Shown: piece by piece, positions 3,040-58,565 of the stretch
Layout of the letters: each line of letters starts with the position of its first letter
Numbering within the stretch: position 1 is the first letter of the stretch
Source: Candidatus Moraniibacteriota bacterium
Lineage (GTDB): Bacteria; Patescibacteriota; Minisyncoccia; Moranbacterales; UBA9337
DNA length: 64,000 nt
Direction of reading: 5' to 3'
Assembly (NCBI GenBank): GCA_049287345.1
Contig: JBAQFQ010000010.1
Location: 7,795-71,794, forward strand
Notes under the pieces: model-generated
Seen by the model: the letters and a program-made list of their open reading frames with translations, nothing else
Databases searched by the model: none
Told to the model about the DNA's origin: nothing
Made by a program: the position numbers and the translations under genes

Positions 3040-3196
3040 AAATGTGATAAATGCTTTTCTTTAACTTAAATTAAATAAAAATAATAATTGTTGCAATATA
3101 TACAACAATTCCAACATTTAGAACACTCCTACGCTCTGGACTCTTGTCCATTATCATACTACTATTAGATGAGATAATCAATAAGTTAAACCGTTT

Positions 3197-4897: not shown

Positions 4898-4974
4898 TCC
4901 AGCTAACAAAAAATGTCAAAATTCCAATTTCAAATACCAAATAAATTTTAAATTTCTAAATGACTAAATAAAAG

Positions 4975-5095
4975 ACTGTCATTGCGAGGAGGTACTCCGA
5001 CGTGGCAATCTCCTTTATTGCACTCAAAGCTCGCGATTTGTCATTTCGACTAAATAAATTTCTGTACTCGGAAATTTACGCATGGAGAAATCTCA
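4975..5095. repeat. Compound intergenic GTCAT-type repeat region (TGTCATTGCGAGG... and TGTCATTTCGACT...)
   Basis: 5037-5095 shares both ends (tgtcatttcgact..ataaatttc.gtactcg.aaat ... gaaatctcaaa) with 55198-55290. Confidence 0.7.
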
Positions 5096-5189
5096 AATAC
5101 TTATAATAAAAAATAACAAATCTACAAAAACCATTATGCCGCATCTCCGCGATAGCAGAAATGCAAAACAATGATAAAGATAAAATTTA

Positions 5190-5231
5190 AAACCACCGAA
5201 AAGCGCTGCTCCGCTCTCGGTGGGTTTTTTA
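5190..5231. terminator. Bidirectional rho-independent terminator
   Basis: Stem ACCACCGA...TCGGTGG with an A-run upstream and a T-run downstream. Sits after the stop of the minus-strand 5242..6276 gene. Confidence 0.7.
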
Positions 5232-5241
5232 GAAACTATTT

Positions 5242-23087: not shown

Positions 23088-23259
23088 ACTTTAAATTAAT
23101 TTTTAATTATTGATTTTAAATTTTTAGTCAATTTTATAAATAATAAATTTTTAATGTTTTCATACAATATATTTCTAAACATCCCATAAGATTTTAGCCA
23201 TTAAATCATTTGATATTGATTTGAAATTTAAAATTTGAAATTTAAAATTTTTCAATATA

Positions 23260-32364: not shown

Positions 32365-32622
32365 GATATTAGTTCTTTGTTACTAGTTACTAGTTATTAG
32401 ACTCTTAAAAAAAATATTTAAAATTATAAAATTCTTAAATTCAATTCAAATTCTAATTTCTTAATTTTTCAAACATTTAAAATTTATTTTCTGAATTATT
32501 TTTTAACATTATAATTTTAATCATTAAAAATTCATTTGAAATTCAAAATTTGAAATTTGAAATTCAGATATAAATTTTTACTTTACAAACCTTATAACTT
32601 TATAAACCTTAAAAACTATCCC

Positions 32623-33750: not shown

Positions 33751-33982
33751 AAAAATAAAAAGACGACCAGCTCTCCCATTATATTATCTAAAATAAAAAG
33801 AAGCAAAAAATTTAAAATTATCATCAAAAGATAGATTTATGATTTAAGATTTACGAATTACGAATTTTTTCAATATCTCATTTTCTTAAATCTTAAATCA
33901 TAAATCTTAAATCCAATCATTCAAAATTTATTAATCCGTTAACTCATTAACTACACAATAATCAATGCCAAAAAGCTACCCG

Positions 33983-38926: not shown

Positions 38927-39406
38927 TTATTTAACTTTTTTCTTAGTTTCCTTTTTAACTACCTCATCAGCAGTTTCTATCTTTCCACCCATTTTTCCAA
39001 TCGCCTCAACTGCAGCCCCAGAAACTAAAATGTCTTTAGCAATCACAACTTTATTCTTAAACTCTCCACTAGCTAAAATCTTTACTCCATTTTTAATTTC
39101 ACTTTTTCTGAAAATTCCCTTTTCCACCAAAGTTTTTTGACTAATCACTTCGTCATTAGCAAAAAATTTATCAATTTGACCCAATTTAAAAATGTTTTTC
39201 TTTGGAGTAATAGCTTTAAAACCACGCACCTTCTTTAATCTTTCCAATAAAGAAGTGCTTCCTCCTTGAAACAATGGATCAACATTACCGCCAGATCTGG
39301 CTTTTTGTCCCTTGTTACCTTTACCAGAATAAGTACCGCGCTTACCACCTCGCCCAATTCGTTTGCGATTCTTTTTCGGTTTTACTTTTAATTCATGTAT
39401 TTGCAT
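38927..39406 (-). CDS. rplO: 50S ribosomal protein L15
   Basis: ATG at 39406 (MQIHELK...GRGGKRGTYSGKGNKGQKARSG); the track start at 39448 is TTG and would overlap rpsE. Confidence 0.9.
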   Translation of the reverse strand: MQIHELKVKPKKNRKRIGRGGKRGTYSGKGNKGQKARSGGNVDPLFQGGSTSLLERLKKVRGFKAITPKKNIFKLGQIDKFFANDEVISQKTLVEKGIFRKSEIKNGVKILASGEFKNKVVIAKDILVSGAAVEAIGKMGGKIETADEVVKKETKKKVK

Positions 39407-39425
39407 ACCTTTAAATTTATAGTTA

Positions 39426-39917
39426 TTAGGCTTGAGCTTTAATCTCAAATTCTTTCAAAGCCTTAATTGTAGCCCTAGCTACATTTAATTTATTAGATGT
39501 TCCCAATGATTTAGAAACAATATCCTTAATTCCAGCTAAATCTACTACTGCTCGCACAGCTCCACCAGCAACAATTCCTCTTCCTTCTTTTGCTGGCTTT
39601 ACCATGATCTTAGCACTTCCCATTTTTACACTCATATCATAAGCGATTGTTCCTTTGCTAATATCAATAGTAATCATGGATTTCTTAGCATCATTAACTG
39701 CCTTACCGATAGCATTAGAAACATCCGGTCCCTTTCCTACTCCTACACCCACACGACCTTTTCTATCACCGATAACCATTGTTGCTCTAAAGCTAAAACG
39801 ACGACCACCTTTAACCACACGAGTTACTCGAGCTAAGTCCAAAAGCTTCTGCTCAAATTCAGGTTTTTCTCGCTTCTTTTTATCTGATCTAAATTTTTTT
39901 GATTTGTCATCATTCAT
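39426..39917 (-). CDS. rpsE: 30S ribosomal protein S5
   Basis: S5 dsRBD and C-terminal domain signature. The following gene is rplO directly; no rpmD (L30). Confidence 0.93.
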   Translation of the reverse strand: MNDDKSKKFRSDKKKREKPEFEQKLLDLARVTRVVKGGRRFSFRATMVIGDRKGRVGVGVGKGPDVSNAIGKAVNDAKKSMITIDISKGTIAYDMSVKMGSAKIMVKPAKEGRGIVAGGAVRAVVDLAGIKDIVSKSLGTSNKLNVARATIKALKEFEIKAQA

Positions 39918-39957
39918 AATTTTTTGTAGTCTCCAAATATTTTAACAAAAATGTAAA

Positions 39958-40302
39958 TTAAAATTTAAGACCCTCTTCTCTCATTGCATCCGCTAGAGCC
40001 TTTACCTTACCATGATATCTATATCCACTTCTATCGAAAACAATTTGTCCAATTTTTAATTCCTTACACTTATCAGCCATTGCTTTTCCAACCTTCTTAG
40101 CGCCCTCAACAGTTGCGCCTGCTTTTAAAGATTTAGCACTAGCGGCAGCCAAGGTCATCCCTCGCTCATCATCAATTAACTGAGCATAGACATCACTTAA
40201 ACTTCTAAAAATCGCTAAACGAGGACAGGTAGCTGTACCTGAAACTTTAGCTCTTATTCGTCTCTTTCTGTGCAATCGTTTGTTGTTTCTACTAATAATC
40301 AT
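39958..40302 (-). CDS. rplR: 50S ribosomal protein L18
   Basis: L18 signature. Confidence 0.9.
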   Translation of the reverse strand: MIISRNNKRLHRKRRIRAKVSGTATCPRLAIFRSLSDVYAQLIDDERGMTLAAASAKSLKAGATVEGAKKVGKAMADKCKELKIGQIVFDRSGYRYHGKVKALADAMREEGLKF

Positions 40303-40366
40303 ATAATAATTTTATCTAAATAATTTCTTTATTGAAAATATCTTTGATTCATTTTAATTTTCCTCC

Positions 40367-40903
40367 TTAGGAAGAAGCTTTCTTACCTTCTTTTCTTCTA
40401 ACAATTTCTCCAGCATATCTAAATCCTTTACCCTTATAAGGTTCTACTGGTTTTAGAGCACGAATTTCTGAAGCAAACTGACCAACTACCTGCTTATCAA
40501 TACCTGAAATAGTAAGTGTATTATTTTCCACTTTCGCCTCTAAGCCTTCTATTATCTCCACTTCTACTGGATGAGAAAAACCTAATGCTAGTTTGATCTT
40601 TTTTCCAACAACTTCCATTCTAAATCCCACACCATTCAATTCTAGAATCTTTGAAAAACCATTGGAAACACCCTCCACCATATTACCAATCAGACGATTA
40701 GTAGTTCCCCACATAGCACTAGCTTTCTTACTACTGTTATTTCTATCCACAGCAATAAGATTATCCTTTATCTCCACTTTTACATCATGAAGAATCACTA
40801 GTTCTAATTTTCCCTTAGGACCAGAAACAACAATTTTGTTGTCCACCATTTCTACGGTTACGCCCTGAGGTATTTCAACTGGTTTTTTACCTATTCTACT
40901 CAT
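40367..40903 (-). CDS. rplF: 50S ribosomal protein L6
   Basis: Two L6 alpha/beta domains. Confidence 0.93.
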   Translation of the reverse strand: MSRIGKKPVEIPQGVTVEMVDNKIVVSGPKGKLELVILHDVKVEIKDNLIAVDRNNSSKKASAMWGTTNRLIGNMVEGVSNGFSKILELNGVGFRMEVVGKKIKLALGFSHPVEVEIIEGLEAKVENNTLTISGIDKQVVGQFASEIRALKPVEPYKGKGFRYAGEIVRRKEGKKASS

Positions 40904-41066
40904 TTAATCATGAAACATACGCCATGGAACACAAAACATTTCTGTCGATATTCCACATACCTATGTGTGTATTATATAATTTTTATCAACTCCTTATTCT
41001 AAACTATTTTTCCATACTTAGCAACCCCACCCGCATTAATCTATCCGTGTCATTTGCATCGTATGT

Positions 41067-41474
41067 TTACCAAACTTCACAAATCAATTCTCCACCCACT
41101 CCATTTTTTCGAGCTTCTTCTCCAGTAACAACACCCTTAGAAGTCGATAAAATTGCGATACCCATGCCATTCTTTACTCTGCGAATATCTTCCTTACTTA
41201 CATAGATTCTCTGACCTTCCTTGCTAACTCGCTTAATTGATCGAATAGCTGGAACTACATCTTTGGTTCCCTCTTTACTGTAATATTTCAAATCAACCTT
41301 GATTACATCAAATTTTCCATCCTTTAACTCAGTCACTTGCTTAACGAATTCACTTTTCAATAACACACTCGCAATAGCTTTTTTAAGTTTTGAACTAGAA
41401 AAAACAACCTCGCTGTGTCCAGCCATCTGTGCATTTCTTATTCTAGTTAACATTTCACTAATTGGATCTAACAT
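41067..41474 (-). CDS. rpsH: 30S ribosomal protein S8
   Basis: MLDPISEMLTRIRNA N-terminus. Confidence 0.93.
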   Translation of the reverse strand: MLDPISEMLTRIRNAQMAGHSEVVFSSSKLKKAIASVLLKSEFVKQVTELKDGKFDVIKVDLKYYSKEGTKDVVPAIRSIKRVSKEGQRIYVSKEDIRRVKNGMGIAILSTSKGVVTGEEARKNGVGGELICEVW

Positions 41475-41541
41475 ATACTTCGTTTAATTAAAGTTAATTC
41501 AATAATTATATTTATACTTATTTATCTCTCAAATTTTATTC

Positions 41542-41727
41542 CTACCAACTACTCTTTCTTACACCCGGGATTTCTCCATTACTCGCTAATTCACGAAAAC
41601 AAATTCGGCAAATATCAAATTTACGCATATAGCCTCTTTTTCTTCCACACTTCCAACAACGTCGCACTTCTCGAGTGGAAAATTTTGGAGTCTTTTTGGA
41701 TTTAGCAATTACTGATTTTTTTGCCAT
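41542..41727 (-). CDS. rpsZ: 30S ribosomal protein S14, zinc-binding Z-type
   Basis: 61 aa with [10 protein letters not shown]...CRICFRE zinc ribbon. Confidence 0.93.
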
Positions 41728-41784
41728 ATTATTATTTATCTAAATTATCTTATAATAAAAAATTAATTAATATCTATATTTAAA

Positions 41785-42336
41785 TTATTTCTTCTCCTGC
41801 AAAGGAAATCCCAACAATCTAAATAACATATCTCCCTCTGCTTGAGTCTTTGCATTAGTCGCCACATTAACCTGTAGACCAAAAATGAATTTTGCATCTT
41901 CAGCGGAAATTTCCGGAAAAACGATGTGCTCTTTGATTCCCAAATTCAAATCCCCCTCTTTGCTAACACTACTAGCCTTAACACCTTGGAAATCTCGAGT
42001 TCGAGGATAAACAACATTATTTAATCTATCAATAAAATCCCACATTCTTGGACCTCTTAGAGTTACCTTTATACCAACCTCTGCACCTTCCCTAACCTTA
42101 AAACCAGAAATAGATTTCTTAGCCTTGGTCATAAGTGGGTTTTGTCCGGTAATCACGCGCATTGTTTCCACCATATCATTGATTTTTTCCTTTTCTTTTC
42201 CTAGCTTACCGATACCAATATTAACTACCACTTTCTTAATCACTGGGATTGATAGCTTATTTTTATAGCCAAAAGCCTCCTTAAGTTTTGGTGCAACAAT
42301 TTCTTGATATTTAGTTTTAGAACTAATAATTTTCAT
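41785..42336 (-). CDS. rplE: 50S ribosomal protein L5
   Basis: L5 signature. Confidence 0.93.
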   Translation of the reverse strand: MKIISSKTKYQEIVAPKLKEAFGYKNKLSIPVIKKVVVNIGIGKLGKEKEKINDMVETMRVITGQNPLMTKAKKSISGFKVREGAEVGIKVTLRGPRMWDFIDRLNNVVYPRTRDFQGVKASSVSKEGDLNLGIKEHIVFPEISAEDAKFIFGLQVNVATNAKTQAEGDMLFRLLGFPLQEKK

Positions 42337-42407
42337 AATGATATGGACCCTCTAATCTAAACTAATCTTCTTAACTAATTAGCTTTAAATTTGATTTATA
42401 ACTTAAC

Positions 42408-42716
42408 TTATATATTTTTCTTACATTTTTTACAAACTCTGCTTTTTTCACCGCTCTCATCAATCGCATAACCCACTCGAGTCTCTTTACCACATTTAGG
42501 ACAAATCAACATCGCATTAGAGACATCAATCGGCACAGCAATCTCCACTCTTTGTCCCTTTTCTCCATCTTTCTTAGGGCGCACATGCTTTTTGATTATA
42601 TTAATACCCTCTACCACAATCTTGCCATCTGATTTAATAATATTCAAAACTTTGCCATTCTTTCCAGCATCTTTTCCGGCAATAATTTTTACTTTGTCAT
42701 TTTTTTTAATTCTCAT
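42408..42716 (-). CDS. rplX: 50S ribosomal protein L24 with a C-terminal C4 zinc-ribbon extension
   Basis: KOW domain N-terminus; CPKC...CKKC at the C-terminus. Confidence 0.88.
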   Translation of the reverse strand: MRIKKNDKVKIIAGKDAGKNGKVLNIIKSDGKIVVEGINIIKKHVRPKKDGEKGQRVEIAVPIDVSNAMLICPKCGKETRVGYAIDESGEKSRVCKKCKKNI

Positions 42717-42824
42717 GTTATTCTGTACTAATTACTAATTTTTTACTAATATACTAATCATCATCCATTTTTTTCCTACCACATTCGTATATTCGTATTT
42801 TATTCGTAATTCGTAAATATTAAT

Positions 42825-43190
42825 TTACAATACCTCTGGTGCTAATGAAGCAATTTTATTAAATCCTCGCTCCTTAACTTCTCTAGCAATTGGGCCAAAA
42901 ATTCTACTTCCTTTAGGCTCAGTTCCATCTACTATCACAGCAGCATTTTCATCAAAGCGGATATATGAACCATCTTTTCGCTTCAAACTCTTTACCTGAC
43001 GCACAATTACAGCCTTTACCTTATCACCCTTCTTAACTGAACCTCTTGGCTCAGAAGATTTAACAGAGGCTACAATAATATCGCCCACGTAGGCATATCT
43101 CTTTCGAGAACCGCCCAATACCTTGAAACATTCGATTATTTTAGCGCCGGTATTGTCAGCTACTCTTAATTTTGATTCTGATTGTATCAT
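42825..43190 (-). CDS. rplN: 50S ribosomal protein L14
   Basis: [17 protein letters not shown] signature. Confidence 0.95.
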
Positions 43191-43283
43191 AATTATATAA
43201 AACTCTAGTCTACACTAATTATCTTGAATTTATTCGTGATTATTAGTGGGTAAATTCGAGCCTGCTTTGTGATTTAAATCATT

Positions 43284-43529
43284 TTATAAGACTTGGAATG
43301 TCTTATTCTTACTTATCGGCTTAGTACTAAAAAATTCTACCTTATCTCCAATCTTATACTTATTCGTCTCATCATGCACGTGATATTTTTTAGTTGATCT
43401 ATATTTTTTCAGATATTTTGGGTCTGTCTTGAAGGTCTCTACAGCCACAACAATGGTTTTATCCATTTTGTCACTCACTACCACCCCAACAATAGTCTTT
43501 TTCAATTTTTCTACTTTTTTCTCTGTCAT
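43284..43529 (-). CDS. rpsQ: 30S ribosomal protein S17
   Basis: S17 OB fold. Confidence 0.9.
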   Translation of the reverse strand: MTEKKVEKLKKTIVGVVVSDKMDKTIVVAVETFKTDPKYLKKYRSTKKYHVHDETNKYKIGDKVEFFSTKPISKNKTFQVL

Positions 43530-43540
43530 AATTGCTTTAA

Positions 43541-43732
43541 TTATATATTATTTTTCTCTCTTATCACTGTTAAAATTCTAGCTACTTCCCGTTTGGCATT
43601 TCTTAATTCTCGATGATTCTTTGCCTGCTTTACAGAGACATCAAACATTAAGCTTTGAGTTAAGGATCTCTTTTCACTAAGATCTTTCCCCAATTCATTA
43701 ATATTTTTTTCTCTTAATTCTTTAGTCTTCAT
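43541..43732 (-). CDS. rpmC: 50S ribosomal protein L29
   Basis: 63-aa helical protein in the conserved position. Confidence 0.85.
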   Translation of the reverse strand: MKTKELREKNINELGKDLSEKRSLTQSLMFDVSVKQAKNHRELRNAKREVARILTVIREKNNI

Positions 43733-43794
43733 AATTATATAAATTTATCTTTTTTTCTAAATAAGTTTTTTACCTGGAAATCTAGCTATTTCAA

Positions 43795-44208
43795 TTAATT
43801 CTTTTCAATAAACTTGGTTTTAATGCCTAGCTTATGAGCAGCTAACTGCATCGCCTTTTTTGCCAACTCCTTATCCACACCATCCATCTCAAACATTACT
43901 TTCCCGGGTCTAATTTTGGCAACATAATGGTCAACTGATCCTTTACCTTTACCCATCGGCACTTCATCTCCTTTTTTAGTCATCGGTTTATCAGAAAAAA
44001 TTCTAATCCAAATTTTACCACCTCTTTGAATATGTCGAGTCATCGCCCGTCTAGCTGATTCAATTTGTCTAGCGGAGATCAATCCACCCTCCATAGCTTT
44101 TAGTCCATAAGTACCAAAACTAACTTTACTACCTCTAGTAGTTTCACCTTTAATTGGACCACCACGGTGGATTTTTCTATGCTTAACTTTTCTCGGCATT
44201 AATAACAT
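43795..44208 (-). CDS. rplP: 50S ribosomal protein L16
   Basis: [12 protein letters not shown] signature. Confidence 0.93.
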
Positions 44209-44250
44209 ATATTTACAAAAATTTTAAATTTTAAATTTCAAATTTTAAAC

Positions 44251-44892
44251 TTACTCAAATACTTCTCCCTTATAAATCCAGACCTTTACACCAATAGCTC
44301 CATAGGTAGTTCGAGCTGTTGCTCGAGAAAAATCTATATCAGCTCTCAATGTTTGAAGAGGGATTGTTCCTTTGGATAACCATTCTTTTCTAGACATTTC
44401 TGCTCCACCCAATCTACCGGAAACTTCAACCTTTATACCTTTTACAATCTTATTTTTTTCAGATTGTTCCAAAGTTGTTTTCAAAATTCTTCGAAAGGGA
44501 ACTCTTTTTTCTAATTGCTCAGCTACTTGTTGAGCAACGATTGAGGCATTTGCATCAAAATCTTTAACCTCGCGAATATCAATCTTAATCACCAATCGAC
44601 TACCTGAAAAAAATTCTTTCTTAACTGCTCGACTGATATCTTCAATACCACTACCGCCTCTACCAATTAAAACCCCAGGGCGAGAAGTTAATATTATTAT
44701 TTTCATGTCATTCTCAGATCTTTCAATCTCAACATCTGAAATAGAAGCTTGCTTCCATTTCTTCATAATAAAACCTCTAACACTCACATCCTCTCTTAAA
44801 TTTCTAGCAGAATTCTTTCCACCAAACCATCTAGAGCGCCATGTTGTTGTGATTCCGATTCTGAAACCCCTTGGATTAACTTTTTGTCCCAT
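44251..44892 (-). CDS. rpsC: 30S ribosomal protein S3
   Basis: MGQKVNPRGFR start, KH domain. ATG at 44892; the track start at 44910 is TTG. Confidence 0.93.
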   Translation of the reverse strand: MGQKVNPRGFRIGITTTWRSRWFGGKNSARNLREDVSVRGFIMKKWKQASISDVEIERSENDMKIIILTSRPGVLIGRGGSGIEDISRAVKKEFFSGSRLVIKIDIREVKDFDANASIVAQQVAEQLEKRVPFRRILKTTLEQSEKNKIVKGIKVEVSGRLGGAEMSRKEWLSKGTIPLQTLRADIDFSRATARTTYGAIGVKVWIYKGEVFE

Positions 44893-44995
44893 AAATATAT
44901 AATTCTCCAATCTCCACTAATTTTTCTCTAATTATCTCTAATGACTTCGTGATTATTAGTGAATAGATTCGAGGTTTGATTTGCGACTTAAATCA

Positions 44996-45826
44996 TTATT
45001 TCTTAATTCTTCTTTTTACAATAAATTTATTACTATATTTCTTCTTCTTTCTGGTCTTTTTCCCTAAGGCAATCTTTCCCCAAGGAGTCTTTGGATATTT
45101 CAATCCAACCCCTTGTTTTCCTTCTCCACCTCCATGTGGATGATCAACTGGATTCATAGCACTACCTCTAACAGCTGGGCGTTTACCTAACCAGCGTCCT
45201 CTTCCAGCTTTACCAATTTTTTCTACACCATGCTCGAAATTACTTACCTGACCAATCGTAGCATAACATTCACTATTAACTAATCTAATTTCGCCAGAAG
45301 ACATTTTCAATTGAGCTTTCTTACCATCTAGACCCATCAACAATACTCTCGCACCAGCACTTCTAGCCATTTGCCCACCTTTTCCAATAGTCAATTCTAT
45401 ATTACATAATGTTGTGCCTACTGGAATATTTTTCATCTGCATTCGGTTTCCATTATCAAAGCTAGCTATCGTATCAGCGACAATGGTTTTTCCAACCATC
45501 ATTCCCTCGGAAGCTATAATATATCTTTTTTCTCCGTCAGCATAAGATATCAAAGCTAGTAAAGCTGAACGATTAGGATCTTTTTCAATTGCAACAATTT
45601 TTCCCAATACACCCAATTTATCCTGCTTAAAATCAACGATTCGGTATTTTCTTTTATGTCCGCCTCCTTTATGACGTACAGATATTTTACCAGCTGATCT
45701 TCCTGATTTCTTACTCAAACCAACCAGCAAAGATTTCTCTGGTTTTTTCTTGGTAACGCCCTCAGGTTTTATCACGGACATATTTCTTCGTCCGGCTGCG
45801 TTTCTTTTGTAAACTTTGATTGCCAT
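44996..45826 (-). CDS. rplB: 50S ribosomal protein L2, in a non-canonical position between rplV and rpsC
   Basis: L2 signature including GGGEGKQG. Confidence 0.95.
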
Positions 45827-45914
45827 AATGATATAAATCTCTAATCTACACTAATTACTTTACTAATATTCTCTAATGTTATTCCATTTGCGACTACTTG
45901 CGCCCTATGTCAGA

Positions 45915-46463
45915 TTATACTGATTTTCTTTTAAACATTTTCTTACCCCAGCCCTTCTCACGACTTTCCTTTTTCTTGGCTTCTACTTTATAGTGAGCTC
46001 GCTTATTAGCTCCACCTATTGTCTTTTTAGTTTCTTTAACTTTTTCCACAGTCTCCTCACTGCCCTCAGTTTTGTCCACAGCTTCTACTTTCTTAACTGA
46101 TTTACTTTTCTTTGCAACTTTTCCAGTAACTGCTTCCCCTTCTAAGGTTATATAAACATGTGAACTTCTTTTTAATATCTCCGCCGCCCGTCCGTAAGCT
46201 CTTGGCATCCATCTCTTCATAGTGATTCCTTCTCCTACCTGAATATCAGAAATTACCAATGAATTCTTATCTAGATTGAAGTTATTTTGAGCATTATTAA
46301 CAGCACTCAATAACATTTTCTTTATAGGCTCATTAGATTTCTTTACAGTATTATCCAATCTAAAAATTGCTTCTTCAATTTTACAACCTCTAATAATATC
46401 AGCTGAAATTCTGACCTTTCTTGGTGATATTCTTAAATTCTTTAATTTTGCTTTAACCTTCAT
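45915..46463 (-). CDS. rplV: 50S ribosomal protein L22 with a Lys/Glu-rich C-terminal extension
   Basis: SPRKVR..ADIIRG, MKRWMPRAYGRA signature. Confidence 0.93.
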   Translation of the reverse strand: MKVKAKLKNLRISPRKVRISADIIRGCKIEEAIFRLDNTVKKSNEPIKKMLLSAVNNAQNNFNLDKNSLVISDIQVGEGITMKRWMPRAYGRAAEILKRSSHVYITLEGEAVTGKVAKKSKSVKKVEAVDKTEGSEETVEKVKETKKTIGGANKRAHYKVEAKKKESREKGWGKKMFKRKSV

Positions 46464-46501
46464 ATGCTATAAAATCTAATAAACTTTTATTATAAACCTC
46501 C

Positions 46502-46828
46502 TTAAGCTTTTTTAGCGGCCTTAGCTGCATCCATTTCCTTTTGTTTAGCAGCCTGCTCCAAATCTTTTTGAATCTTTCCTCCATGTCGGAAAAATGTCCG
46601 CGTAAAGGAAAATTCCCCTAGTTTATGACCTACCATTTCTTCCACTACATAAACATTTATAAATTTTCTCCCATTATAAACTCCAAAAGTATAGCCAACC
46701 ATCTCAGGAACAATAGTTGAAGATCTTGACCAGGTTTTGATCACATCCTTATCTCCAGCTTTCTTGTTCTTTATCTTATTTAATAGCTTTTCATCTATAT
46801 ATGGACCTTTTTTTAAACTTCTTGACAT
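46502..46828 (-). CDS. rpsS: 30S ribosomal protein S19
   Basis: SLKKGPYID...GHKLGEF signature. Confidence 0.95.
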
Positions 46829-46923
46829 ATTTTCTGGTAACTAGCAACTGGTGATCAGTAACTAGTAAATTTCCTATTTATACTATTAAAATTATTGAAT
46901 ATTTATTCGTAAATTCTCATAAA

Positions 46924-47361
46924 TTACTCGAAAACCTCAATCTTATCTCCTTTTTTCAATGTTACGATAGCTTTCCGAATAGCAGACTTTTTTCCAGTGT
47001 ATCTACCAAACTTTCTCACCTTTTGAGGAATATTAATGATATTTACTCCAGCTACTCTAACATTATATAATTTTTCCACCGCAACCTTTGCTTCTCGCTT
47101 GGTGGTCTTGGCTCTCAATCTAAAAATATATTTACTACTATTCATCAATTCCTGAGCTTTCTCGGTTATCCATGGTCGAACAATAAATTTATAGGCCATT
47201 TGTCCATCTCCAGCTGGTTGACTCTTCTCTTCTTTTAAATCAACCTTCTTGGTTGTTTTCTTGGAAACATTTTTTTTCTTAGTCACCAAAGCATCAGTCA
47301 TCTCAGCGACTGGCTTTTCCTCAATGTTTTCTTCTTCTTTTTTCTTATTAAATAAACCCAT
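46924..47361 (-). CDS. rplW: 50S ribosomal protein L23 with an N-terminal extension of about 55 aa
   Basis: Conserved L23 core in the C-terminal 90 aa. Confidence 0.88.
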   Translation of the reverse strand: MGLFNKKKEEENIEEKPVAEMTDALVTKKKNVSKKTTKKVDLKEEKSQPAGDGQMAYKFIVRPWITEKAQELMNSSKYIFRLRAKTTKREAKVAVEKLYNVRVAGVNIINIPQKVRKFGRYTGKKSAIRKAIVTLKKGDKIEVFE

Positions 47362-47372
47362 AAAAATAAATT

Positions 47373-47996
47373 CTAATTATACTTTTTTTCTAAATATGCG
47401 ATTGACTCTTCACTTATAACCAAACTCTTATAATTTAAAATATCCAAAACATTCAAATTATCAATTGGGGTACATTTTAAATTAGCAATATTCTTTGTGT
47501 ATAGGTAAGTCTCCTTTTCTCCTTGAGCTAAATTAATCAAAATAGATCCCTTTAATTTCAAAGCTTCCAATCCTTTAACAATATCCTTAGTTTTTTTGTT
47601 GGCTGCTTCAATTTTTTCCACCACAATCAATTTTTCACTGCGGATCTTTTCACTTAAAGCCATTAGGATTGCCTTGGCGTTAGCTTTTTTATTGATCTTC
47701 TTTTTGAAATTTCTATCCTTAGTTGGTCCAAAAACGATTCCGCCACCTCTCCAAATTGGACTTCTTACTGATCCCGCTCGCGCTCTACCAGTTCCTTTTT
47801 GTTTCCAAGGCTTTTTTCCACTACCGGCTACTTCACCTCTACCCTTAGTATGAGCAATGGCGACTCTTTGGTTAGCATCCATAGAAACATAAACCTCATG
47901 TAATAGCTCCTTATTCAAAGGAACATTAAAAACATTTTCAGATAATTCAATATCCTTAACTTTTTTGCCCTCAAAATTGTATACGTTAGTTTTCAT
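47373..47996 (-). CDS. rplD: 50S ribosomal protein L4
   Basis: L4 signature. ATG at 47996 (MKTNVYNF); the track start at 48014 is TTG. Confidence 0.9.
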   Translation of the reverse strand: MKTNVYNFEGKKVKDIELSENVFNVPLNKELLHEVYVSMDANQRVAIAHTKGRGEVAGSGKKPWKQKGTGRARAGSVRSPIWRGGGIVFGPTKDRNFKKKINKKANAKAILMALSEKIRSEKLIVVEKIEAANKKTKDIVKGLEALKLKGSILINLAQGEKETYLYTKNIANLKCTPIDNLNVLDILNYKSLVISEESIAYLEKKYN

Positions 47997-48044
47997 CTTT
48001 TTAATAATTCCCAATAATAAAACTTAGCAATTCACTTTTTTTAA

Positions 48045-48617
48045 TTAAACTAGGCAAATCTGAACCATTCTTCCTACTACTCCAGGCACAGCCCCCTTAA
48101 GTCCAATTAAATTCTTATCTTTATCAATATATACTACTTTCAAATTTTTAACACTAAAATTATTTCCACCCATTCTTCCAGCCATCTTCTTTCCCTTTAA
48201 TACATGTTCAGGAAAAGCGGAACCGATAGAACCTGGGGCCCGATGATCATGTCTGTGACCATGACTAGCTGGAGAACCAGCAAATCCATGTCTTTTTACC
48301 ACACCTTGATATCCCTTACCCTTGGTTGTCCCCCTAACTATAACTTTCTCATCTATCGCAAAAGTATCCACCAAAACTTCTTTTCCTACTTCAAAGCTAG
48401 CTTTATCAGATTCTTTAATTCTAAATTCTCGAGAGACACTCTTGTCTTTCTTATTCTTAAAGCTAAGACAAACAGCATTATAGCCATCTTTTTCCTCATT
48501 TTTCAAAGACTCTATCTTGTTGGGAGTACATTCAACTAAAGTAATGTTTAAAGCACCCTTCTCATTATCATAAATGGTTGTCATTCCCACTTTTTTTCCT
48601 AATATAAACTTTGCCAT
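48045..48617 (-). CDS. rplC: 50S ribosomal protein L3
   Basis: ATG at 48617 (MAKFILGKKVGMT). Confidence 0.93.
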   Translation of the reverse strand: MAKFILGKKVGMTTIYDNEKGALNITLVECTPNKIESLKNEEKDGYNAVCLSFKNKKDKSVSREFRIKESDKASFEVGKEVLVDTFAIDEKVIVRGTTKGKGYQGVVKRHGFAGSPASHGHRHDHRAPGSIGSAFPEHVLKGKKMAGRMGGNNFSVKNLKVVYIDKDKNLIGLKGAVPGVVGRMVQICLV

Positions 48618-48772
48618 CTTAATTTTCTTAAAATTCTTAAAATATTTTACCAAACAAAAAAACTGGTCTTCACGAGCCAGTAAAAACTAAATTTTTATTA
48701 GTTTTTAAATTTTCTGGCTAGTTGAGTATCTCACGTTTTATTAAATAACGCAAGACTTTAACTAGTTGTCTA

Positions 48773-49096
48773 TTACATTTTTACTTCAATATCTACTCCT
48801 GCAGGTAAATCCAAATTAGTCAAATCATCAATTGTCTTAGTCTTAGGATTCAAAATGTCAATCAATCGCTTGTGTACTCGCATCTCATATTGATCACGTG
48901 CATCTTTATGGACAAAAGTAGACTTATTTACAGTTACCTTATGAATCTCGGTAGGTAGTGGTACTGGACCAGCTATCTGAGCACCGGATCTTAGGGCTGT
49001 TTCTATAATCTTCTTAGCTGATTGATCTATGACCTTATTGTCATAAGCTTTAATCTTGATTCTAATTCTAGATTGTACTTCTTCTTTTTTATTCAT
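48773..49096 (-). CDS. rpsJ: 30S ribosomal protein S10
   Basis: ATG at 49096 ([15 protein letters not shown]). Confidence 0.93.
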
Positions 49097-49151
49097 TATA
49101 GTAATAAACTCTAACACTATTAATTTATTCCCTTTTTAAGAGAACTATTCC

Positions 49152-49178
49152 CCGTCCGTCCGCCGAGGCGGACGAGAC
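49152..49178 (-). promoter_or_regulatory. GC-rich hairpin in the tuf-rpsJ spacer (tuf terminator and/or S10-operon leader structure)
   Basis: TCCGTCCGCC-gag-GGCGGACGA stem, exceptionally GC-rich for this genome, without a clear U-tract. Confidence 0.45.
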
Positions 49179-49206
49179 AGGGTGAAGTTCACTCAAATAT
49201 ATGTAA

Positions 49207-50397
49207 TTATTTGATAATTTTTGTTGCAATACCAGCACCTACAGTTCTTCCACCTTCTCGAATTGCAAATCTCATTCCCTCTTCCATCGCTACATTAGAT
49301 GAAAGTTTGATTTTTAGATTTACAGTATCTCCAGGCATAACCATTTCAGTTCCTTCTGGAAGCTCTACTTCTCCAGTTACATCAGTAGTTCGAATATAGA
49401 ACTGAGGTTTGTAACCCTTGAAGAAAGGAGTATGTCTTCCACCTTCTTCTTTAGTAAGAACGTAGATTTCTCCTTCAAATTCGCTATGAGGAGTAATAGA
49501 TCCAGGAGCTGCCAAAACTTGACCTCTCTCTACATCTTCTTTCTTAGTTCCTCGAATAAGAATTCCAGCATTGTCTCCAGCTTGACCCTTATCTAATTGC
49601 TTATTAAACATCTCAATTCCAGTAACTGTTGTTTTTTGAGTGTCTCTTAAACCAATAATCTCTACTTCATCACCAATTTTTACTGTTCCTCTTTCGATTC
49701 TTCCAGTAATAACGGTTCCTCTACCTTCGATAGAGAAGATATCTTCGATTGGCATCAATAAAGGTTTTTCAGTATCTCTAACTGGTTCTGGAATTTTCTC
49801 ATCCAATGCAGCTAGTAAATCCCAAATTGGCTTAGCTTTTTCATCATCAGGATCAGTTACATTCAAAGCTTGAACAGCTGAACCACGAATAATTGCAGCA
49901 TTTTCACCATCGAATTGATATTTTGAAAGAAGCTCTCTAATTTCTTCCTCAACTAAGTCGATTAATTCAGGATCATCCACCATATCAATCTTGTTAACGA
50001 AAACAACGATATTGGAAACACCTACTTGATTAGCCAAAAGAATGTGCTCTCTAGTTTGTGGCATAGGACCGTCAGTAGCACTTACTACGATAATCGCTCC
50101 GTCCATTTGAGCAGCACCAGTAATCATGTTTTTGATATAGTCAGCATGACCAGGACAGTCAACATGAGCATAATGTCTTTTTTCTGATTCATATTCACAA
50201 TGAGCAGTAGCGATAGTAATACCTCGCTCTCTTTCCTCAGGAGCCTTATCGATTTCTGAGATATTTTTTGCTTTTGCCATTCCTTTTAGGCTTAGCACAT
50301 GTAAAATAGCCGCTGTTAAAGTGGTTTTACCATGGTCAACATGACCGATTGTTCCCACATTAACATGGGGTTTGGTTCTTTCAAATTTTTCTGCCAT
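49207..50397 (-). CDS. tuf: Elongation factor Tu
   Basis: [18 protein letters not shown]-motifs; 396 aa. Confidence 0.97.
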
Positions 50398-50537
50398 AAA
50401 ACTTTACGCTGCGAAAGAAAATCCACCTTCGCATTTTTTATATTTTATTAATTATTATTTTTTAAAAATAAATTCTTTTTCTTTGTAAAAAATAACGCAA
50501 CACAAAAATAACATTCCGCTTTTCTTTGTGATACCCA

Positions 50538-50568
50538 ATAATAATAGCACTCTTATTTTTTTTGTCAA
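50538..50568 (-). promoter_or_regulatory. Candidate tuf promoter TTGACA-N16/17-TATTAT (minus sense)
   Basis: The reverse complement of 50536-50568 reads ttgacaaaaaaaataagagtgctattat. A hairpin enclosing the AGGTGG Shine-Dalgarno sits just upstream of the ATG. Confidence 0.5.
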
Positions 50569-50774
50569 TAGGAAAGTCTCTACTAATTACGAATCTGTAC
50601 GAATATACAAAAAAAGTCACAAATTTCTTTATCTATAGGGCAAATGACCATTTTTTAATTCTCAATTTTCAATCAATCTTCAATGATTTAATATCCAGAA
50701 AATTCAATCCTCCACTTCTTAAAATAAATTAAATTTATCATTTCAAAAATACACCCAATTTTACATGGTCTTCC

Positions 50775-50803
50775 GTACAGACGAGGCACTGCCTCGTCTC
50801 TAC
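50775..50803. repeat. Hairpin element GTACAGACGAGGCactGCCTCGTCTCTAC, left boundary of the ORF6N insertion
   Basis: Inverted copy at 51513-51538; shares the GGCACTGCC apex with the 4871 and 16873 hairpins. Confidence 0.75.
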
Positions 50804-50806
50804 AAT

Positions 50807-51427
50807 CTATTTTTTCGCCTCCCTAAAACCTATTACTTTCAACTCTTTATCTTTGGGGTCAGTCATCATTAGTCTGTTGATAATTTTAAATATAATCTTG
50901 AAATTAGATTCATTTTTCTTTTCCATTTTTTCTATTTTATCACGTAGTTCTTTGTGAGTTGAAAGTATTTTTCTCATCCCAATAAACGCTCGCATTATTT
51001 GAATATTCACTTGGATAGCTCGATCGCTTTTAAGAACGCTCGAAAGCATAGCAATGCCTGGTTCGGTAAAAACGTATGGCAGATATTTTATATTTTGACC
51101 CCTGTTCAAGGTCACAATTTGTGACCTTGAAAATTTATCATTTCTTGAAGTCACAATTTGTGACCTTGAGTTTTCATCACTTGAGGTGCCAAATTGGAAC
51201 CCTGAGAAGATATCTGCTTCTTTTTTATTAAGCTGAAACATAAAATCTTCCGGAAATCTTTTTATGTTTCTTTTAACTGCTTGATTGAGAACTTTTGTTT
51301 CTACGCCATAAAGCAACGCAAGATCTTTATCAAATATTACCTTCTCACCTCTGATATAGTAAATCTTTCCGATAATTCTTTCATCAGGAATAATAACTAT
51401 TGATTTTTTGTTTTTAGCTTCGGACAT
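50807..51427 (-). CDS. ORF6N-domain (KilA-N-related) phage-associated DNA-binding protein, inserted between fusA and tuf
   Basis: LALLYGVETKVLNQAVKRNIKRFPEDFMFQL and RSQIVTS...LPYVFTEPGIAMLSSVLKSDRAIQVNIQIMRAF match the ORF6N family. Contains an in-frame 39-nt tandem duplication. Confidence 0.65.
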   Translation of the reverse strand: MSEAKNKKSIVIIPDERIIGKIYYIRGEKVIFDKDLALLYGVETKVLNQAVKRNIKRFPEDFMFQLNKKEADIFSGFQFGTSSDENSRSQIVTSRNDKFSRSQIVTLNRGQNIKYLPYVFTEPGIAMLSSVLKSDRAIQVNIQIMRAFIGMRKILSTHKELRDKIEKMEKKNESNFKIIFKIINRLMMTDPKDKELKVIGFREAKK

Positions 51428-51512
51428 TTTGTTTTATGAAGATTTTACTATGCCTTAATTTTATCACGAAATCACCCCATCATACAAACAAAAATTAAAA
51501 AATACCAATATC

Positions 51513-51538
51513 GAGACGAGGCAGTGCCTAGTCTGTAC
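51513..51538. repeat. Hairpin element, right boundary of the ORF6N insertion (inverted copy of 50775-50803)
   Basis: GAGACGAGGCagtGCCTAGTCTGTAC. Confidence 0.75.
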
Positions 51539-51540
51539 AC

Positions 51541-51577
51541 AAAACAAAAACCTCGACATAGTGTCGAGGTTTTTTTA
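51541..51577. terminator. fusA terminator (bidirectional)
   Basis: CCTCGACA-tag-TGTCGAGG with an A-run before and TTTTTTT after. Confidence 0.85.
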
Positions 51578-51601
51578 TCTATCTATAAAAGATTCTAATC
51601 T

Positions 51602-53734
51602 CTATTTTTTGTCTCCACTGATTATCTCTTGCGCAATATTGGATGGAACTTCAGCATATCTGGCAAATTCCATTACTGATGATGCTCGACCCTGAGTCAT
51701 GCTGCGAAGCTGAGTAGTGTAACCAAACATCGCGGAAAGCGGAACTTCTGTTTCAATTTCTTTAATAATCGCTGTTCCCTCACCCTTGTCGTTAATTTCC
51801 TTAATTATTCCCCGACGAGAATTGATATCACCTACTACGTCTCCCATATATTGCTCTGGAGCACTTATTACAACTTTCATGATTGGTTCAAGTATAATTG
51901 GTTTAGCCATCTTGGCGGCTGATTTGAAAGCCATTGAACCAGCTACCTTAAAGGCGGCTTCGGAGGAATCCACATCATGATATGTTCCATCATAAAGAGT
52001 TGCTTTAACATCCACCATTGGAAATCCAGCTAAAATACCATTTCCCATCGCCTCTTTTATACCCTTTTCTACATGAGGAATAAATTCTTGTGGAATAGCA
52101 CCTCCCTTAATTTCATTAGCAAATTCGAAAATAGAGTCTTCTTTCTTCTTGCCTGATTTTCTTTCCGCCTCTTTTTCCTCCTCAGTCTTCTCCACTTTAA
52201 CCAAAGGTTCAAGACGAATCCAACAATGACCATATTGACCACGACCTCCTGATTGTTTAATATATTTACCTTCAGCCTCAGCATTACCCTTGATAGTTTC
52301 TCGATAAGCCACCTGAGGTTTACCAATATTAGCTTCTACTTTAAATTCTCGCTTCATTCTATCTACCAAAACATCTAGATGAAGCTCACCCATTCCAGAA
52401 ATAATTGTTTGTCCACTCTCTTCATCAGTTCGCACTCTAAAAGTTGGATCCTCTTCAGAAAGTTTTCGTAAAGCAATCGCCATTTTTTCTTGATCAGCTT
52501 TAGTCTTAGGTTCAATAGCGATATCAATCACTGGTTCTGGGAAAGTCATTTTTTCCAAGATTACATGTTTATCCATATCACAAAGAGTGTCTCCAGTAGT
52601 AGTATTTTTGAGTCCTACCAAAGCACCAATTTCACCTACTCCCAAAAATTCGATTTCTTCACGGTGATTAGCGTGCATTCTTAAAATTCGACTAATTCTT
52701 TCTTTTTCCCCCTTAGTTGAATTGTAAACATAAGAACCAGATTTAAGTGAACCAGAATAAATTCTAAAAAAAGTAACTTGTCCCACGAAAGGGTCAGTCG
52801 CCACTTTAAAAGCTAGGGCAGCGAAAGGCTCCTCTTCAGTTGGATGAATATCCAATTCTGCTCCGGTTTTTTCATCCTCAGCTTTTACTGGAGGAAGATC
52901 AAGTGGGGATGGCAAATAATCCAAAACTGCATCCAAAACTAATTGCACACCTTTATTTCGCAAAGCTGTTCCAGTTAAAACTGGGATTAATTTCACATCA
53001 ATCACCGCTTTTCGCAAAGCATCTTTTAATTCCTCTTGAGAAATTTCCTCTCCTTCTAAAAATTTCATTGTTAATTCATCATTTGTTTCAGAAATCTTTT
53101 CTACCAAAATATCTCGACGAGCTTTAGCCTTTTCCATCATCTCCGCTGGGATTTCTTTTTCTACTACTGTCTCACCCATCGCTCCCTCAAATTCATAAGC
53201 TTTCATTTTTACCAAATCAATCACACCAGAAAAATCACCTCTTTCTCCAATTGGAATTTGAATCGCTACCGCCTTAGGGCTAAGTCGATCATGAATTGAT
53301 TTTAAGGCTTTATCAAAATCAGCTCCTTCTTTATCAATTTTATTTATAAAACACATGCGTGGCACACCATATCTATCTGCTTGACGCCAAACAGTTTCAC
53401 TTTGTGGCTCTACACCCTCTTTACCGTCAAAAATAACCACTGCACCATCAAGTACACGTAGTGATCGCTCTACCTCCACAGTAAAATCCACATGGCCAGG
53501 AGTATCGATAATGTTAATTTGGTGTTCTTTCCAAGTACAAGTTGTGGCCGCACTAGTTATAGTGATACCTCGCTCTCGCTCTTGTTCCATCCAGTCCATT
53601 GTTGCTTCTCCCTCATGCACCTCACCAATCTTATGAGTGATTCCAGTATAATACAAAATACGCTCAGTGGTGGTAGTTTTACCTCCATCAATATGAGCAA
53701 TGATTCCAATATTTCTTAGTTTTTTGATATCCAT
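51602..53734 (-). CDS. fusA: Elongation factor G
   Basis: [22 protein letters not shown]-motifs; domains II-V; a lineage-specific Lys/Glu-rich insertion. Confidence 0.96.
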
Positions 53735-53933
53735 ATTTTAATAAAAATTTTTAATTTTAAATTTTTAATTTTAAATAAATTTTAAATGCTCTAATTTATA
53801 ACAAAAAAATAAAACCACTTCTAAAAAAGAATTAGTAATTTTACTTATGATTCAACATCGTTAACGATCTTTAGTCTTTTGGCTTCTTAAGATCTTAAAT
53901 TCCCAACTTCGCAAATTCCTAGCTTTGTAGTGA

Positions 53934-54401
53934 CTAAGCGAAATGCGCAAAAGCTCGGTTAGATTCAGCCATTTTGTGAACATCTTCTTTTTTCTTCATA
54001 GCTGCTCCAGTCTTTTCAGAAGCCTCCAATAATTCGTCCGCTAATTTAGCTGGCATACTCTTACCCTTTCTTTTTTGACAAACATCCTTAATCCAAGCCA
54101 TAGCTAAAGCCTGTCTCTTGTTTCCGGAAACTTGTACTGGCACCTGATAATTTGTGCCTCCTACTCTTTTTGATTTTACTACTAGTAAAGGAGAAACATT
54201 TTTAATGGCTTGTTCAAAAACATTTAATCCACCTTTTTGAGTTTTTTCATGAATAATATCAAAAGCATCGTAAACCACTTTTTCAGCTACGCTTCTTTTT
54301 CCATCTTGCATAATACATCCGATAAATCTACCCAACAAAGAATTACCGTATTTAGAATCGGCTTTCCAATGACTAGGGAATGTTCTTTTTCTTCTTGGCA
54401 T
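53934..54401 (-). CDS. rpsG: 30S ribosomal protein S7
   Basis: S7 signature. Confidence 0.93.
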   Translation of the reverse strand: MPRRKRTFPSHWKADSKYGNSLLGRFIGCIMQDGKRSVAEKVVYDAFDIIHEKTQKGGLNVFEQAIKNVSPLLVVKSKRVGGTNYQVPVQVSGNKRQALAMAWIKDVCQKRKGKSMPAKLADELLEASEKTGAAMKKKEDVHKMAESNRAFAHFA

Positions 54402-58437: not shown

Positions 58438-58565
58438 ATTATTAATTTCTAATTATTAATTTTTAATTTTAAATCAAATCTTAATTTTTTAATTTATTAA
58501 ACATTAAATCATTTAATTATTGAAAATTCATTCGAAATTCAAAACTCAAAATTAAAAATTTTTTC

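What the first reader, a model, noticed from the sequence alone, without database searches (positions are those of the whole stretch)
44893..46923. Non-canonical S10-operon gene order: rplB relocated to between rplV and rpsC
The minus-strand order is rpsJ-rplC-rplD-rplW-rpsS-rplV-rplB-rpsC. The nearly universal bacterial order is rplW-rplB-rpsS-rplV-rpsC. All products are unambiguous by sequence. rplB is flanked by 88-bp and 103-bp spacers that are homologous to each other and to the rpsQ-rplN spacer (motifs ATATAAATCTCTAATCTACACTAATTA and CGTGATTATTAGTG..ATTCGAG..TTAAATCATT), suggesting the move involved these repeated spacers.
Basis: partly seen in the sequence, partly recalled or inferred. 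Interest (0 to 1): 0.55.

Follow-up and report, generated by a model that had tools for sequence, protein, structure and literature searches.

The report
Reordered ribosomal-protein operon in Moranbacteria
In one lineage of the tiny uncultured Moranbacteria, the gene for ribosomal protein L2 sits two genes further down an operon whose order is otherwise the same in almost all bacteria; this is a real, inherited rearrangement, and the similar spacers beside the gene are copies of a common hairpin repeat rather than scars of the move.

Summary
On the minus strand the order is rpsJ-rplC-rplD-rplW-rpsS-rplV-rplB-rpsC-rplP, and Pfam confirms every product. It is not a misassembly. Ten other species-level Moranbacteria genomes from independent studies share the order, as does a separate 98%-identical raw-read assembly. 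Several of them have short, unique spacers at the new junctions. The 11 genomes form one clade (100/100 bootstrap). All 70 other loci examined, including other Moranbacteria, keep rplW-rplB-rpsS-rplV-rpsC. So rplB and rpsS-rplV exchanged places once, in the ancestor of a Moranbacteria subclade.

The spacers flanking rplB do share motifs. However, they are degenerate copies of dispersed, roughly 90-190-nt palindromic elements whose arms are tandem 7-9-nt units. These elements occupy many junctions, differ between close relatives at the same junction, and are absent from the new junctions in several clade members. They also occur in canonical-order relatives, mostly away from ribosomal genes, and once inside a 23S rRNA gene. 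They are not relics of the move, although repeats of this kind could have mediated it (inference).

This is a new variant of a known operon, of moderate interest.

The parts
46924..47361 (-). rplW (L23, 145 aa, with an N-terminal extension). It is the last gene before the first breakpoint.
   Evidence: PF00276, 6e-25.
46829..46923 (-). New junction 1, the rplW|rpsS spacer (95 nt, 'family C'). It is conserved in L001, L007 and L008, replaced by family A or B elements in L002-L005, and only 17-23 nt long in L006, L009 and L010.
46502..46828 (-). rpsS (S19, 108 aa).
   Evidence: PF00203, 6e-37.
45915..46463 (-). rplV (L22, 182 aa). Its C-terminal extension is also present in canonical-order relatives. 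The 38-nt rpsS|rplV spacer (46464-46501) is conserved, so rpsS-rplV stayed together as a unit.
45827..45914 (-). New junction 2, the rplV|rplB spacer (88 nt). It is a decayed family-A palindromic element. Only the 3' half (ATTAGTGTAGATTAGAGATTTATATCATT-ATG) is well preserved, and the predicted fold is no better than shuffles (z = -0.24).
44996..45826 (-). rplB (L2, 276 aa), the gene in the non-canonical position.
   Evidence: PF00181 and PF03947; 77-91% identity to L2 of clade members.
44893..44995 (-). New junction 3, the rplB|rpsC spacer (103 nt). It is a full-length family-A element and folds as a weak imperfect hairpin (-18.1 kcal/mol, z = -1.35).
44251..44892 (-). rpsC (S3). The start is taken as the ATG at 44892 (MGQKVNP).
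43191..43283 (-). rpsQ|rplN spacer: a full-length family-A element at an unrearranged junction (z = -2.39).
42717..42824 (-). rplN|rplX spacer: a family-B element with 4x TACGAAT followed by 4x ATTAGTA.
42337..42407 (-). rplX|rplE spacer carrying the family-A 3' motif ATTAGTTTAGATTAGAG.

Best explanation
The window comes from a Moranbacteria (Parcubacteria, CPR) genome. In its S10 operon two adjacent blocks, rplB and rpsS-rplV, have exchanged places. Shown: this happened once, in the common ancestor of a subclade now represented by at least 11 species-level genomes, and it has been inherited vertically since. Shown: the operon is still one co-directional, uninterrupted gene string with no terminator-like site between rplW and rpsC. 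Shown: the organism does not use Shine-Dalgarno sites, so each gene starts on its own A/U-rich leader. Inferred: this independence from tight translational coupling is why the permutation was tolerated. Shown: the similar spacers around rplB are degenerate copies of dispersed palindromic elements (arms of tandem 7-9-nt units such as TACGAAT/ATTCGTA) that colonise and replace intergenic spacers and turn over quickly. Such elements occur throughout Moranbacteria and in at least one more distant Parcubacteria-like relative, and they post-date or are independent of the move. Inferred, not shown: the exchange arose by unequal recombination between such direct repeats at operon junctions. That would give a tandem duplication of rplB-rpsS-rplV, followed by loss of the first rplB and the second rpsS-rplV, so every intermediate kept a full gene set.
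For: - **Order and identities:**
- **Same order elsewhere:** L001-L010 share it, while L011-L080 are all canonical.
- **One clade:** the rearranged genomes are monophyletic 100/100 in a tree of 15 proteins and 2260 columns. They are also monophyletic in L2-only and S19+L22-only trees, next to or among other Moranbacteria.
- **Independent assembly:** Logan contig L201 from SRR29492082 is 98.2% identical over window 43984-46045 and spans both rplB junctions.
- **Repeats cannot have misled an assembler:** L006-L010 have unique 17-46-nt spacers at the rplW|rpsS and/or rplV|rplB junctions. Exact matches between window spacers are at most 16 nt.
- **Operon continuity:** there is no terminator-like site on the minus strand between rplW and rpsC, and promoter-like hits number 42 against 51.9 +/- 8 in shuffles.
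- **No Shine-Dalgarno use:** 9 of 66 genes carry an SD core, against a 6-16% background.
- **Nature of the elements:** families and turnover; strong hairpins in relatives, z = -5 to -11, with no strand asymmetry; filled versus empty sites in close relatives, with flanking codons changing too.
- **Wider distribution of the elements:** at least 120 metagenome stretches carry the TACGAAT-type pattern, and only 7 of 80 lie near S10/spc genes. One copy is inside a 23S rRNA gene. Similar palindromes occur elsewhere in the window.
Against: - The mechanism is not demonstrated. No pseudogene remnants of rplB, rpsS or rplV survive in the new-junction spacers (blastx, all E > 0.5).
- No intermediate genome with duplicated genes was seen.
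- The deepest clade members (L009, L010) have short spacers at two of the three new junctions and none of the family A/B/D elements at any of them.
- The nearest canonical-order relatives in the concatenated tree (L012, L013) have compact spacers of 4-48 nt, so repeats at the ancestral junctions are not documented.
- A family-A element with an almost identical tail precedes rplB both in canonical L023 (rplW|rplB junction) and in the window, L004 and L005 (rplV|rplB junction). This could mean rplB moved together with its leader, or that the element spread later.
- Tolerance through uncoupled translation is inference. Canonical relatives often have 0-5-nt rplB|rpsS spacers, which suggests coupling.
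Confidence: 0.85

Rival explanations
1. Assembly artefact: the similar spacers flanking rplB caused a short-read assembler to join segments in the wrong order.
For: Repeated ~100-nt elements do flank rplB in the window, and all the genomes are metagenome assemblies.
Against: Ten other assemblies, made by different studies and assemblers, share the order. A separate Logan assembly spans both junctions at 98.2% identity. L006-L010 have short, unique spacers at the rplW|rpsS and/or rplV|rplB junctions. The window's spacer copies are only 71-88% identical, with exact runs of at most 16 nt, which is below assembler k-mer sizes.
Confidence: 0.01
2. The present-day spacers are the direct agents or scars of the move: rplB was excised and re-inserted by recombination between these very repeats.
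For: The spacers flanking rplB share a ~52-nt 3' block. Family-A elements precede rplB both at its canonical position in L023 and at its new position in the window, L002, L004 and L005.
Against: The same families occur at unrearranged junctions. Different families, or none, occupy the same junction in close relatives. Elements are absent from junctions in L006-L010. They are also common in canonical-order genomes.
Confidence: 0.1
3. Xenologous replacement: a foreign rplB was inserted between rplV and rpsC, and the native copy after rplW was then lost.
For: It would produce the same order. The spacer comparisons also suggest that recombination imports alleles into these operons.
Against: The closest L2 sequences outside the clade are other Moranbacteria at 65-73% identity. 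The L2-only tree places the clade within the main Moranbacteria group. The concatenated tree also keeps it among Moranbacteria, though joined to different relatives (L012, L013, L033), so the two trees agree on vertical descent within Moranbacteria but not on the exact sister group. No remnant of an rplB gene lies after rplW.
Confidence: 0.04

Closest known systems
Canonical bacterial S10 ribosomal-protein operon (rpsJ-rplC-rplD-rplW-rplB-rpsS-rplV-rpsC-rplP-rpmC-rpsQ)
   Same: It has the same 11 genes, all co-directional and contiguous, following tuf and followed by the spc genes.
   Different: rplB lies after rplV instead of after rplW, and all 70 non-clade loci examined keep the canonical order. 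An attenuator-like RNA lies between rpsJ and rplC; in E. coli the known S10 leader lies upstream of rpsJ (E. coli position from my own knowledge). Long repeat-filled spacers replace tight gene junctions.
Archaeal split of the S10 cluster at uL2|uS19 (Asgard and other archaea, PMC10833476)
   Same: The flanks of uL2 act as breakpoints. In archaea uL3-uL4-uL23-uL2 is often separated from uS19-uL22-uS3..., and uL2 stands alone in some Lokiarchaeota.
   Different: In those archaea the cluster is broken into separate loci. Here the cluster stays contiguous and uL2 is re-inserted two genes downstream.
Dispersed palindromic repeats: REP/BIME, Rickettsia palindromic elements, Correia/ERIC-type MITEs (comparison from my own knowledge)
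   Same: They are short (about 90-190 nt) imperfect palindromes present in many copies, mostly intergenic and often between co-directional genes. At least one copy lies inside an rRNA gene, and presence or absence varies between close relatives.
   Different: The arms are built from tandem 7-9-nt units. Several sequence families share one architecture. Whole spacers are replaced, with no visible target-site duplication. No associated transposase was identified or sought.
Tandem-duplication-random-loss rearrangements (the model used for mitochondrial gene order; from my own knowledge)
   Same: The outcome is an exchange of two adjacent blocks with orientation kept and enlarged spacers at all three new junctions in most clade members.
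   Different: No pseudogene remnants or duplicated intermediates were found.

Membership tests
S10 ribosomal-protein operon | All eleven genes are present, contiguous and co-directional. | tested here: met
   No terminator-like site lies on the coding strand between rplW and rpsC.
S10 ribosomal-protein operon | Canonical internal order rplW-rplB-rpsS-rplV-rpsC. | tested here: not met
   The order is rplW-rpsS-rplV-rplB-rpsC in the window and in L001-L010, and canonical in L011-L080.
REP/RPE/MITE-like dispersed palindromic repeats (the spacers) | Short imperfect palindrome able to form a hairpin. | tested here: met
   Copies in relatives fold with z = -5 to -11. The window copies are degenerate, with z = -0.2 to -2.4.
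REP/RPE/MITE-like dispersed palindromic repeats (the spacers) | Many dispersed copies, mainly intergenic and not tied to one locus. | tested here: met
   At least 120 metagenome stretches match, and 7 of 80 lie near S10/spc genes. By context, 43 copies are co-directional, 8 convergent, 13 divergent and 6 inside a long ORF. The window has similar palindromes at 3008-3125, 23098-23249, 32428-32578 and 33833-33913.
REP/RPE/MITE-like dispersed palindromic repeats (the spacers) | Target-site duplication, or clean insertion into an otherwise conserved empty site (MITE criterion). | tested here: not met
   In filled versus empty sites among L025-L032 the whole spacer is replaced in most cases and adjacent codons also differ. 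No duplication is visible.
REP/RPE/MITE-like dispersed palindromic repeats (the spacers) | Cognate transposase (for example a RAYT) in the genome. | not tested
   Only 64 kb of the genome is available, and the window's other ORFs were not screened.
TIGR arrays (TIGR-Tas) | Alternating 8-12-nt edge and loop repeats separated by ~9-nt variable spacers, in 36-nt units repeated 5-15 times, next to a Nop-domain tas gene (PMC12045711). | tested here: not met
   The units here are identical heptamers 0-4 nt apart, arranged as a single palindrome between ribosomal genes.
Tandem-duplication-random-loss rearrangement | Decayed gene copies in the novel spacers, or extant intermediates with duplicates. 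| tested here: inconclusive
   blastx of all new-junction spacers from 11 genomes against L2, S19, L22, L23 and S3 gave only E > 0.5. The event is old (L2 identity within the clade falls to 77%) and the spacers turn over.

The most novel reading that the evidence does not exclude
The heptamer-repeat palindromic elements are a previously undescribed, lineage-spanning class of hairpin repeats in Parcubacteria. They insert between genes of polycistronic operons, and even into rRNA. The same TACGAAT unit in organisms with only ~55% L2 identity would then reflect a conserved host or element factor that recognises it.
Probability: 0.15. Interest if true: 0.6.

Novelty: new variant of a known kind. 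Interest (0 to 1): 0.4.

Why it matters
The rplW-rplB-rpsS-rplV-rpsC order is shared by bacteria, archaea and plastids (from my own knowledge), and it was invariant in the 70 non-clade loci examined here. A heritable permutation inside it is therefore a rare genomic change. It gives a clean, homoplasy-poor marker for a Moranbacteria subclade. It also shows that the order is not absolutely constrained, at least in an organism without Shine-Dalgarno-based initiation.

There is a practical consequence: pipelines that use the syntenic ribosomal block for binning, or for checking CPR genomes, should not flag this order as an error.

The side observation is that fast-turnover palindromic repeats fill ribosomal-operon spacers and at least one 23S rRNA gene across Parcubacteria. 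This may be the more interesting lead for work on genome dynamics in these reduced genomes.

Tried and rejected
- **Rfam:** a scan of 39000-54000 at E <= 1 found no ribosomal leader or other credible family in the spacers.
- **Internal promoters or terminators created by the move:** promoter-like hits fall below the shuffled expectation, and there is no coding-strand terminator between rplW and rpsC.
- **Pseudogene remnants in the new spacers:** none were found.
- **RNA-level selection on the elements:** sense and antisense folding energies show no asymmetry (59 versus 52 elements, p = 0.49), so RNA and DNA roles cannot be told apart.
- **Which block moved:** comparing the last 34 nt before each start codon in rearranged and canonical genomes was not decisive because the spacers turn over.
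- **TIGR arrays as an explanation for the repeats:** rejected on architecture.
- **Literature:** searches for a prior report of this order in Moranbacteria or CPR found nothing in the held library. A search for palindromic intergenic repeats in Patescibacteria found nothing relevant.
- **Not attempted:** read-level support could not be checked with these tools.

Full report
**1. Observation**

The minus strand of window 39.9-53.7 kb encodes fusA, an ORF6N-domain gene, tuf, and then rpsJ-rplC-rplD-rplW-rpsS-rplV-rplB-rpsC-rplP-rpmC-rpsQ-rplN-rplX-rplE-rpsN-rpsH-rplF-rplR. Pfam confirms L23, S19, L22, L2 (both domains), S3, L16 and L4 with E-values from 6e-25 to 6e-63.

With rpsC starting at the ATG at 44892 (MGQKVNP), the spacers flanking rplB are exactly 88 nt and 103 nt.

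**2. Real, or an assembly artefact?**

A scan of one genome per GTDB species with the L2 protein returned 80 loci. I located 12 S10/spc proteins in each by tblastn.

- L001-L010 have 77-91% L2 identity. They are labelled Moranbacteria/Moraniibacteriota or Parcubacteria, apart from one MAG whose record title reads Bdellovibrionales, and they come from several unrelated studies. All show rplW-rpsS-rplV-rplB-rpsC.
- L011-L080 all show the canonical rplW-rplB-rpsS-rplV-rpsC. They include other Moranbacteria, other CPR phyla, Firmicutes, Chloroflexota and others.
- A neighbour-joining tree of 15 concatenated ribosomal proteins (2260 columns) recovers the window plus L001-L010 as one clade in 100 of 100 bootstraps. 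The clade has a deep internal split between [window, L001-L008] and [L009, L010].
- An exact-protein look-up found an independent Logan assembly from SRR29492082. It is 2061 nt long and 98.2% identical to window 43984-46045, so it spans the 3' end of rplV, rplB, rpsC and the 5' end of rplP.
- Several clade members have short, unique spacers at the new junctions. Exact matches between the window's spacer copies are at most 16 nt. Repeat-induced misjoining is therefore excluded.
- L2-only and S19+L22-only trees keep the clade monophyletic, next to or among other Moranbacteria, so a foreign rplB is unlikely.

The rearrangement is a single ancestral event inherited by a Moranbacteria subclade.

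**3. What the spacers are**

The 3' motif also precedes rplN and rplE. The 5' motif is shared only by the rplB-rpsC and rpsQ-rplN spacers.

Comparing spacers across the window and L001-L033 shows elements of roughly 90-190 nt that fill many junctions of the S10/spc operon. I distinguish at least four families, labelled A to D:

| Family | Sequence signature |
|---|---|
| A | GATTTAAATCAC..CTCGAATCT..CACTAATAATCACGAAT ... ATTAGAGATAATTAGAGAAAAATTAGTGTAGATTAGAGATTTATATAATT-ATG |
| B | 4x TACGAAT ... 4x ATTAGTA ... CAGAATAAC-ATG |
| C | The window's rplW-rpsS spacer |
| D | CCTACGAAG ... ATTCGTAATTTCGTATAAGTTCGTAATTTGTAGAGAATAAC |

Families A, B and D share one architecture: an imperfect palindrome whose arms are 3-5 tandem units of 7-9 nt. 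The palindromes seen in canonical-order relatives have the same build. The window's family C spacer was not shown to have it (z about -1.0).

- **Fold strength.** In other Moranbacteria these elements are strong hairpins, with z = -5 to -11 against shuffles. There is no sense versus antisense bias (59 versus 52 elements, p = 0.49). The window's own copies are degenerate, with z = -0.2 to -2.4.
- **Turnover.** The rplV-rplB junction carries family A in the window, L002, L004 and L005. It carries family B in L001 and family D in L003. L006-L008 have nothing there (19-26 nt), and L009 and L010 have unrelated 45-46-nt spacers.
- **Filled versus empty sites.** Among the very close canonical-order genomes L025-L032, filled and empty sites differ by replacement of the whole spacer, and the adjacent codons differ too. 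This suggests that alleles are imported by homologous recombination rather than by cut-and-paste insertion with a target duplication.
- **Nested insertions.** Some copies carry GC-rich mini-palindromes such as CCTGCCTACCGGCAGGCAGG.
- **Wider distribution.** Only 7 of the 80 fetched lie near S10/spc genes. Most are intergenic, and co-directional neighbours dominate.
- **Beyond Moranbacteria.** One carrier, L087, has only 55% L2 identity to the window and a canonical operon.
- **Inside rRNA.** One copy, in L084, lies inside a 23S rRNA gene.
- **Elsewhere in the window.** Analogous heptamer palindromes occur outside the operon.

These spacers therefore belong to a dispersed, fast-turnover repeat system comparable to REP, RPE or MITE elements. 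They are not scars of the rplB move.

**4. How the rearranged operon works, and how it arose**

*Shown:*
- The gene string is uninterrupted.
- There are no terminator-like sites on the coding strand between rplW and rpsC, and no excess of promoter-like sites.
- The organism does not use Shine-Dalgarno sequences. Nine of 66 genes have an SD core, against a 6-16% background. Start codons are instead preceded by A-rich sequence at positions -6 to -3 and a T at -1.

*Inferred:*
- Each cistron initiates independently on an A/U-rich leader, so the permutation has little cost.
- The cleanest route that keeps every intermediate viable is unequal recombination between direct repeats at operon junctions. 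This would duplicate rplB-rpsS-rplV, and one copy of each block would then be lost.
- That route fits the abundance of homologous direct repeats at several junctions in extant relatives, for example L024 and L027.

*Unproven:*
- No pseudogene remnants survive.
- The basal members L009 and L010 have short spacers at two of the three new junctions and none of the family A/B/D elements.
- Whether rplB moved down or rpsS-rplV moved up cannot be decided.
- A family-A element with an almost identical tail precedes rplB in canonical L023 and in the window, L004 and L005. This hints that rplB may travel with its leader, but later spread of the element explains it equally well.

**5. Comparison with what is known**

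The closest known system is the canonical S10 operon. This locus meets its content and contiguity criteria and fails its order criterion.

In archaea the uL2|uS19 boundary is a recurrent split point, and uL2 can stand alone (PMC10833476). There the cluster is broken into separate loci rather than permuted in place.

[quoted passage not shown] Searches of the held library found no report of this order in Moranbacteria or CPR. TIGR arrays were considered for the repeats and rejected on architecture.

**6. Verdict**

This is a new variant of a known operon, of moderate interest (0.4). The repeat system is an additional lead worth following.

Noticed in passing
window 48618-48772 (rpsJ-rplC spacer, minus strand); orthologous spacers in L001-L033: A conserved attenuator-like RNA lies between rpsJ and rplC across Moranbacteria. 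It has a P1 helix (CTAGTT/AACTAG, with CTCG/CGAG compensatory variants), invariant internal-loop sequences (TTAAAGTC ... GATACT), a variable hairpin with many compensatory changes, then a second hairpin and a stem followed by a U-run. Rfam gave no match. It may be an L4- or L3-responsive leader placed after rpsJ rather than before it.
   Followed up: partly
window 42337-46923, plus 3008-3125, 23098-23249, 32428-32578, 33833-33913 and 58451-58560; loci L001-L033 and L081-L160: Dispersed imperfect palindromes of roughly 90-190 nt have arms made of tandem 7-9-nt units (TACGAAT/ATTCGTA, GCTAAT/ATTAGC, ACAGAA/TTCTGT, AAATTTG and others). Several sequence families share this one architecture. Presence varies between close relatives, and the TACGAAT unit is shared by organisms with only ~55% L2 identity.
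   Followed up: partly
L084 4559-4582 (within the LSU rRNA gene at 2183-5990): A TACGAAT-type palindromic element sits inside a 23S rRNA gene. That gene is about 880 nt longer than the Rfam model. A second copy lies just upstream of the gene.
   Followed up: partly
window 50775-51541 (ORF6N gene at 50807-51427, minus strand): An ORF6N-domain (KilA-N-like) gene is inserted between fusA and tuf. It is bracketed by near-identical GC-rich palindromes (GTACAGACGAGGCACTGCCTCGTCTC) at 50775-50804 and 51514-51541, and it contains an internal 20-nt inverted repeat at 51106-51169. It looks like a small mobile cassette inside the str operon.
   Followed up: partly
L003, L007, L024 and L031 spacers (e.g. 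L024 rplB|rpsS, L031 rplV|rpsC): GC-rich mini-palindromes of 19-50 nt (CCTGCCTACCGGCAGGCAGG and relatives) are nested inside the AT-rich arms of the larger palindromic elements, apparently splitting a TACGAA unit.
   Followed up: no
window-wide (66 start codons): Shine-Dalgarno motifs are not enriched upstream of genes (9 of 66, equal to background). Start codons are preceded by A-rich sequence at -6 to -3 and a T at -1. GGAGG does occur immediately after the stop codons of rpsS (46501) and rplF (40366), far from the next start codon.
   Followed up: partly
window 40904-41066 (rpsH-rplF spacer): This spacer is 163 nt in the window and 183 nt in L002, against 92-94 nt in the other close relatives. 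Its content was not examined.
   Followed up: no
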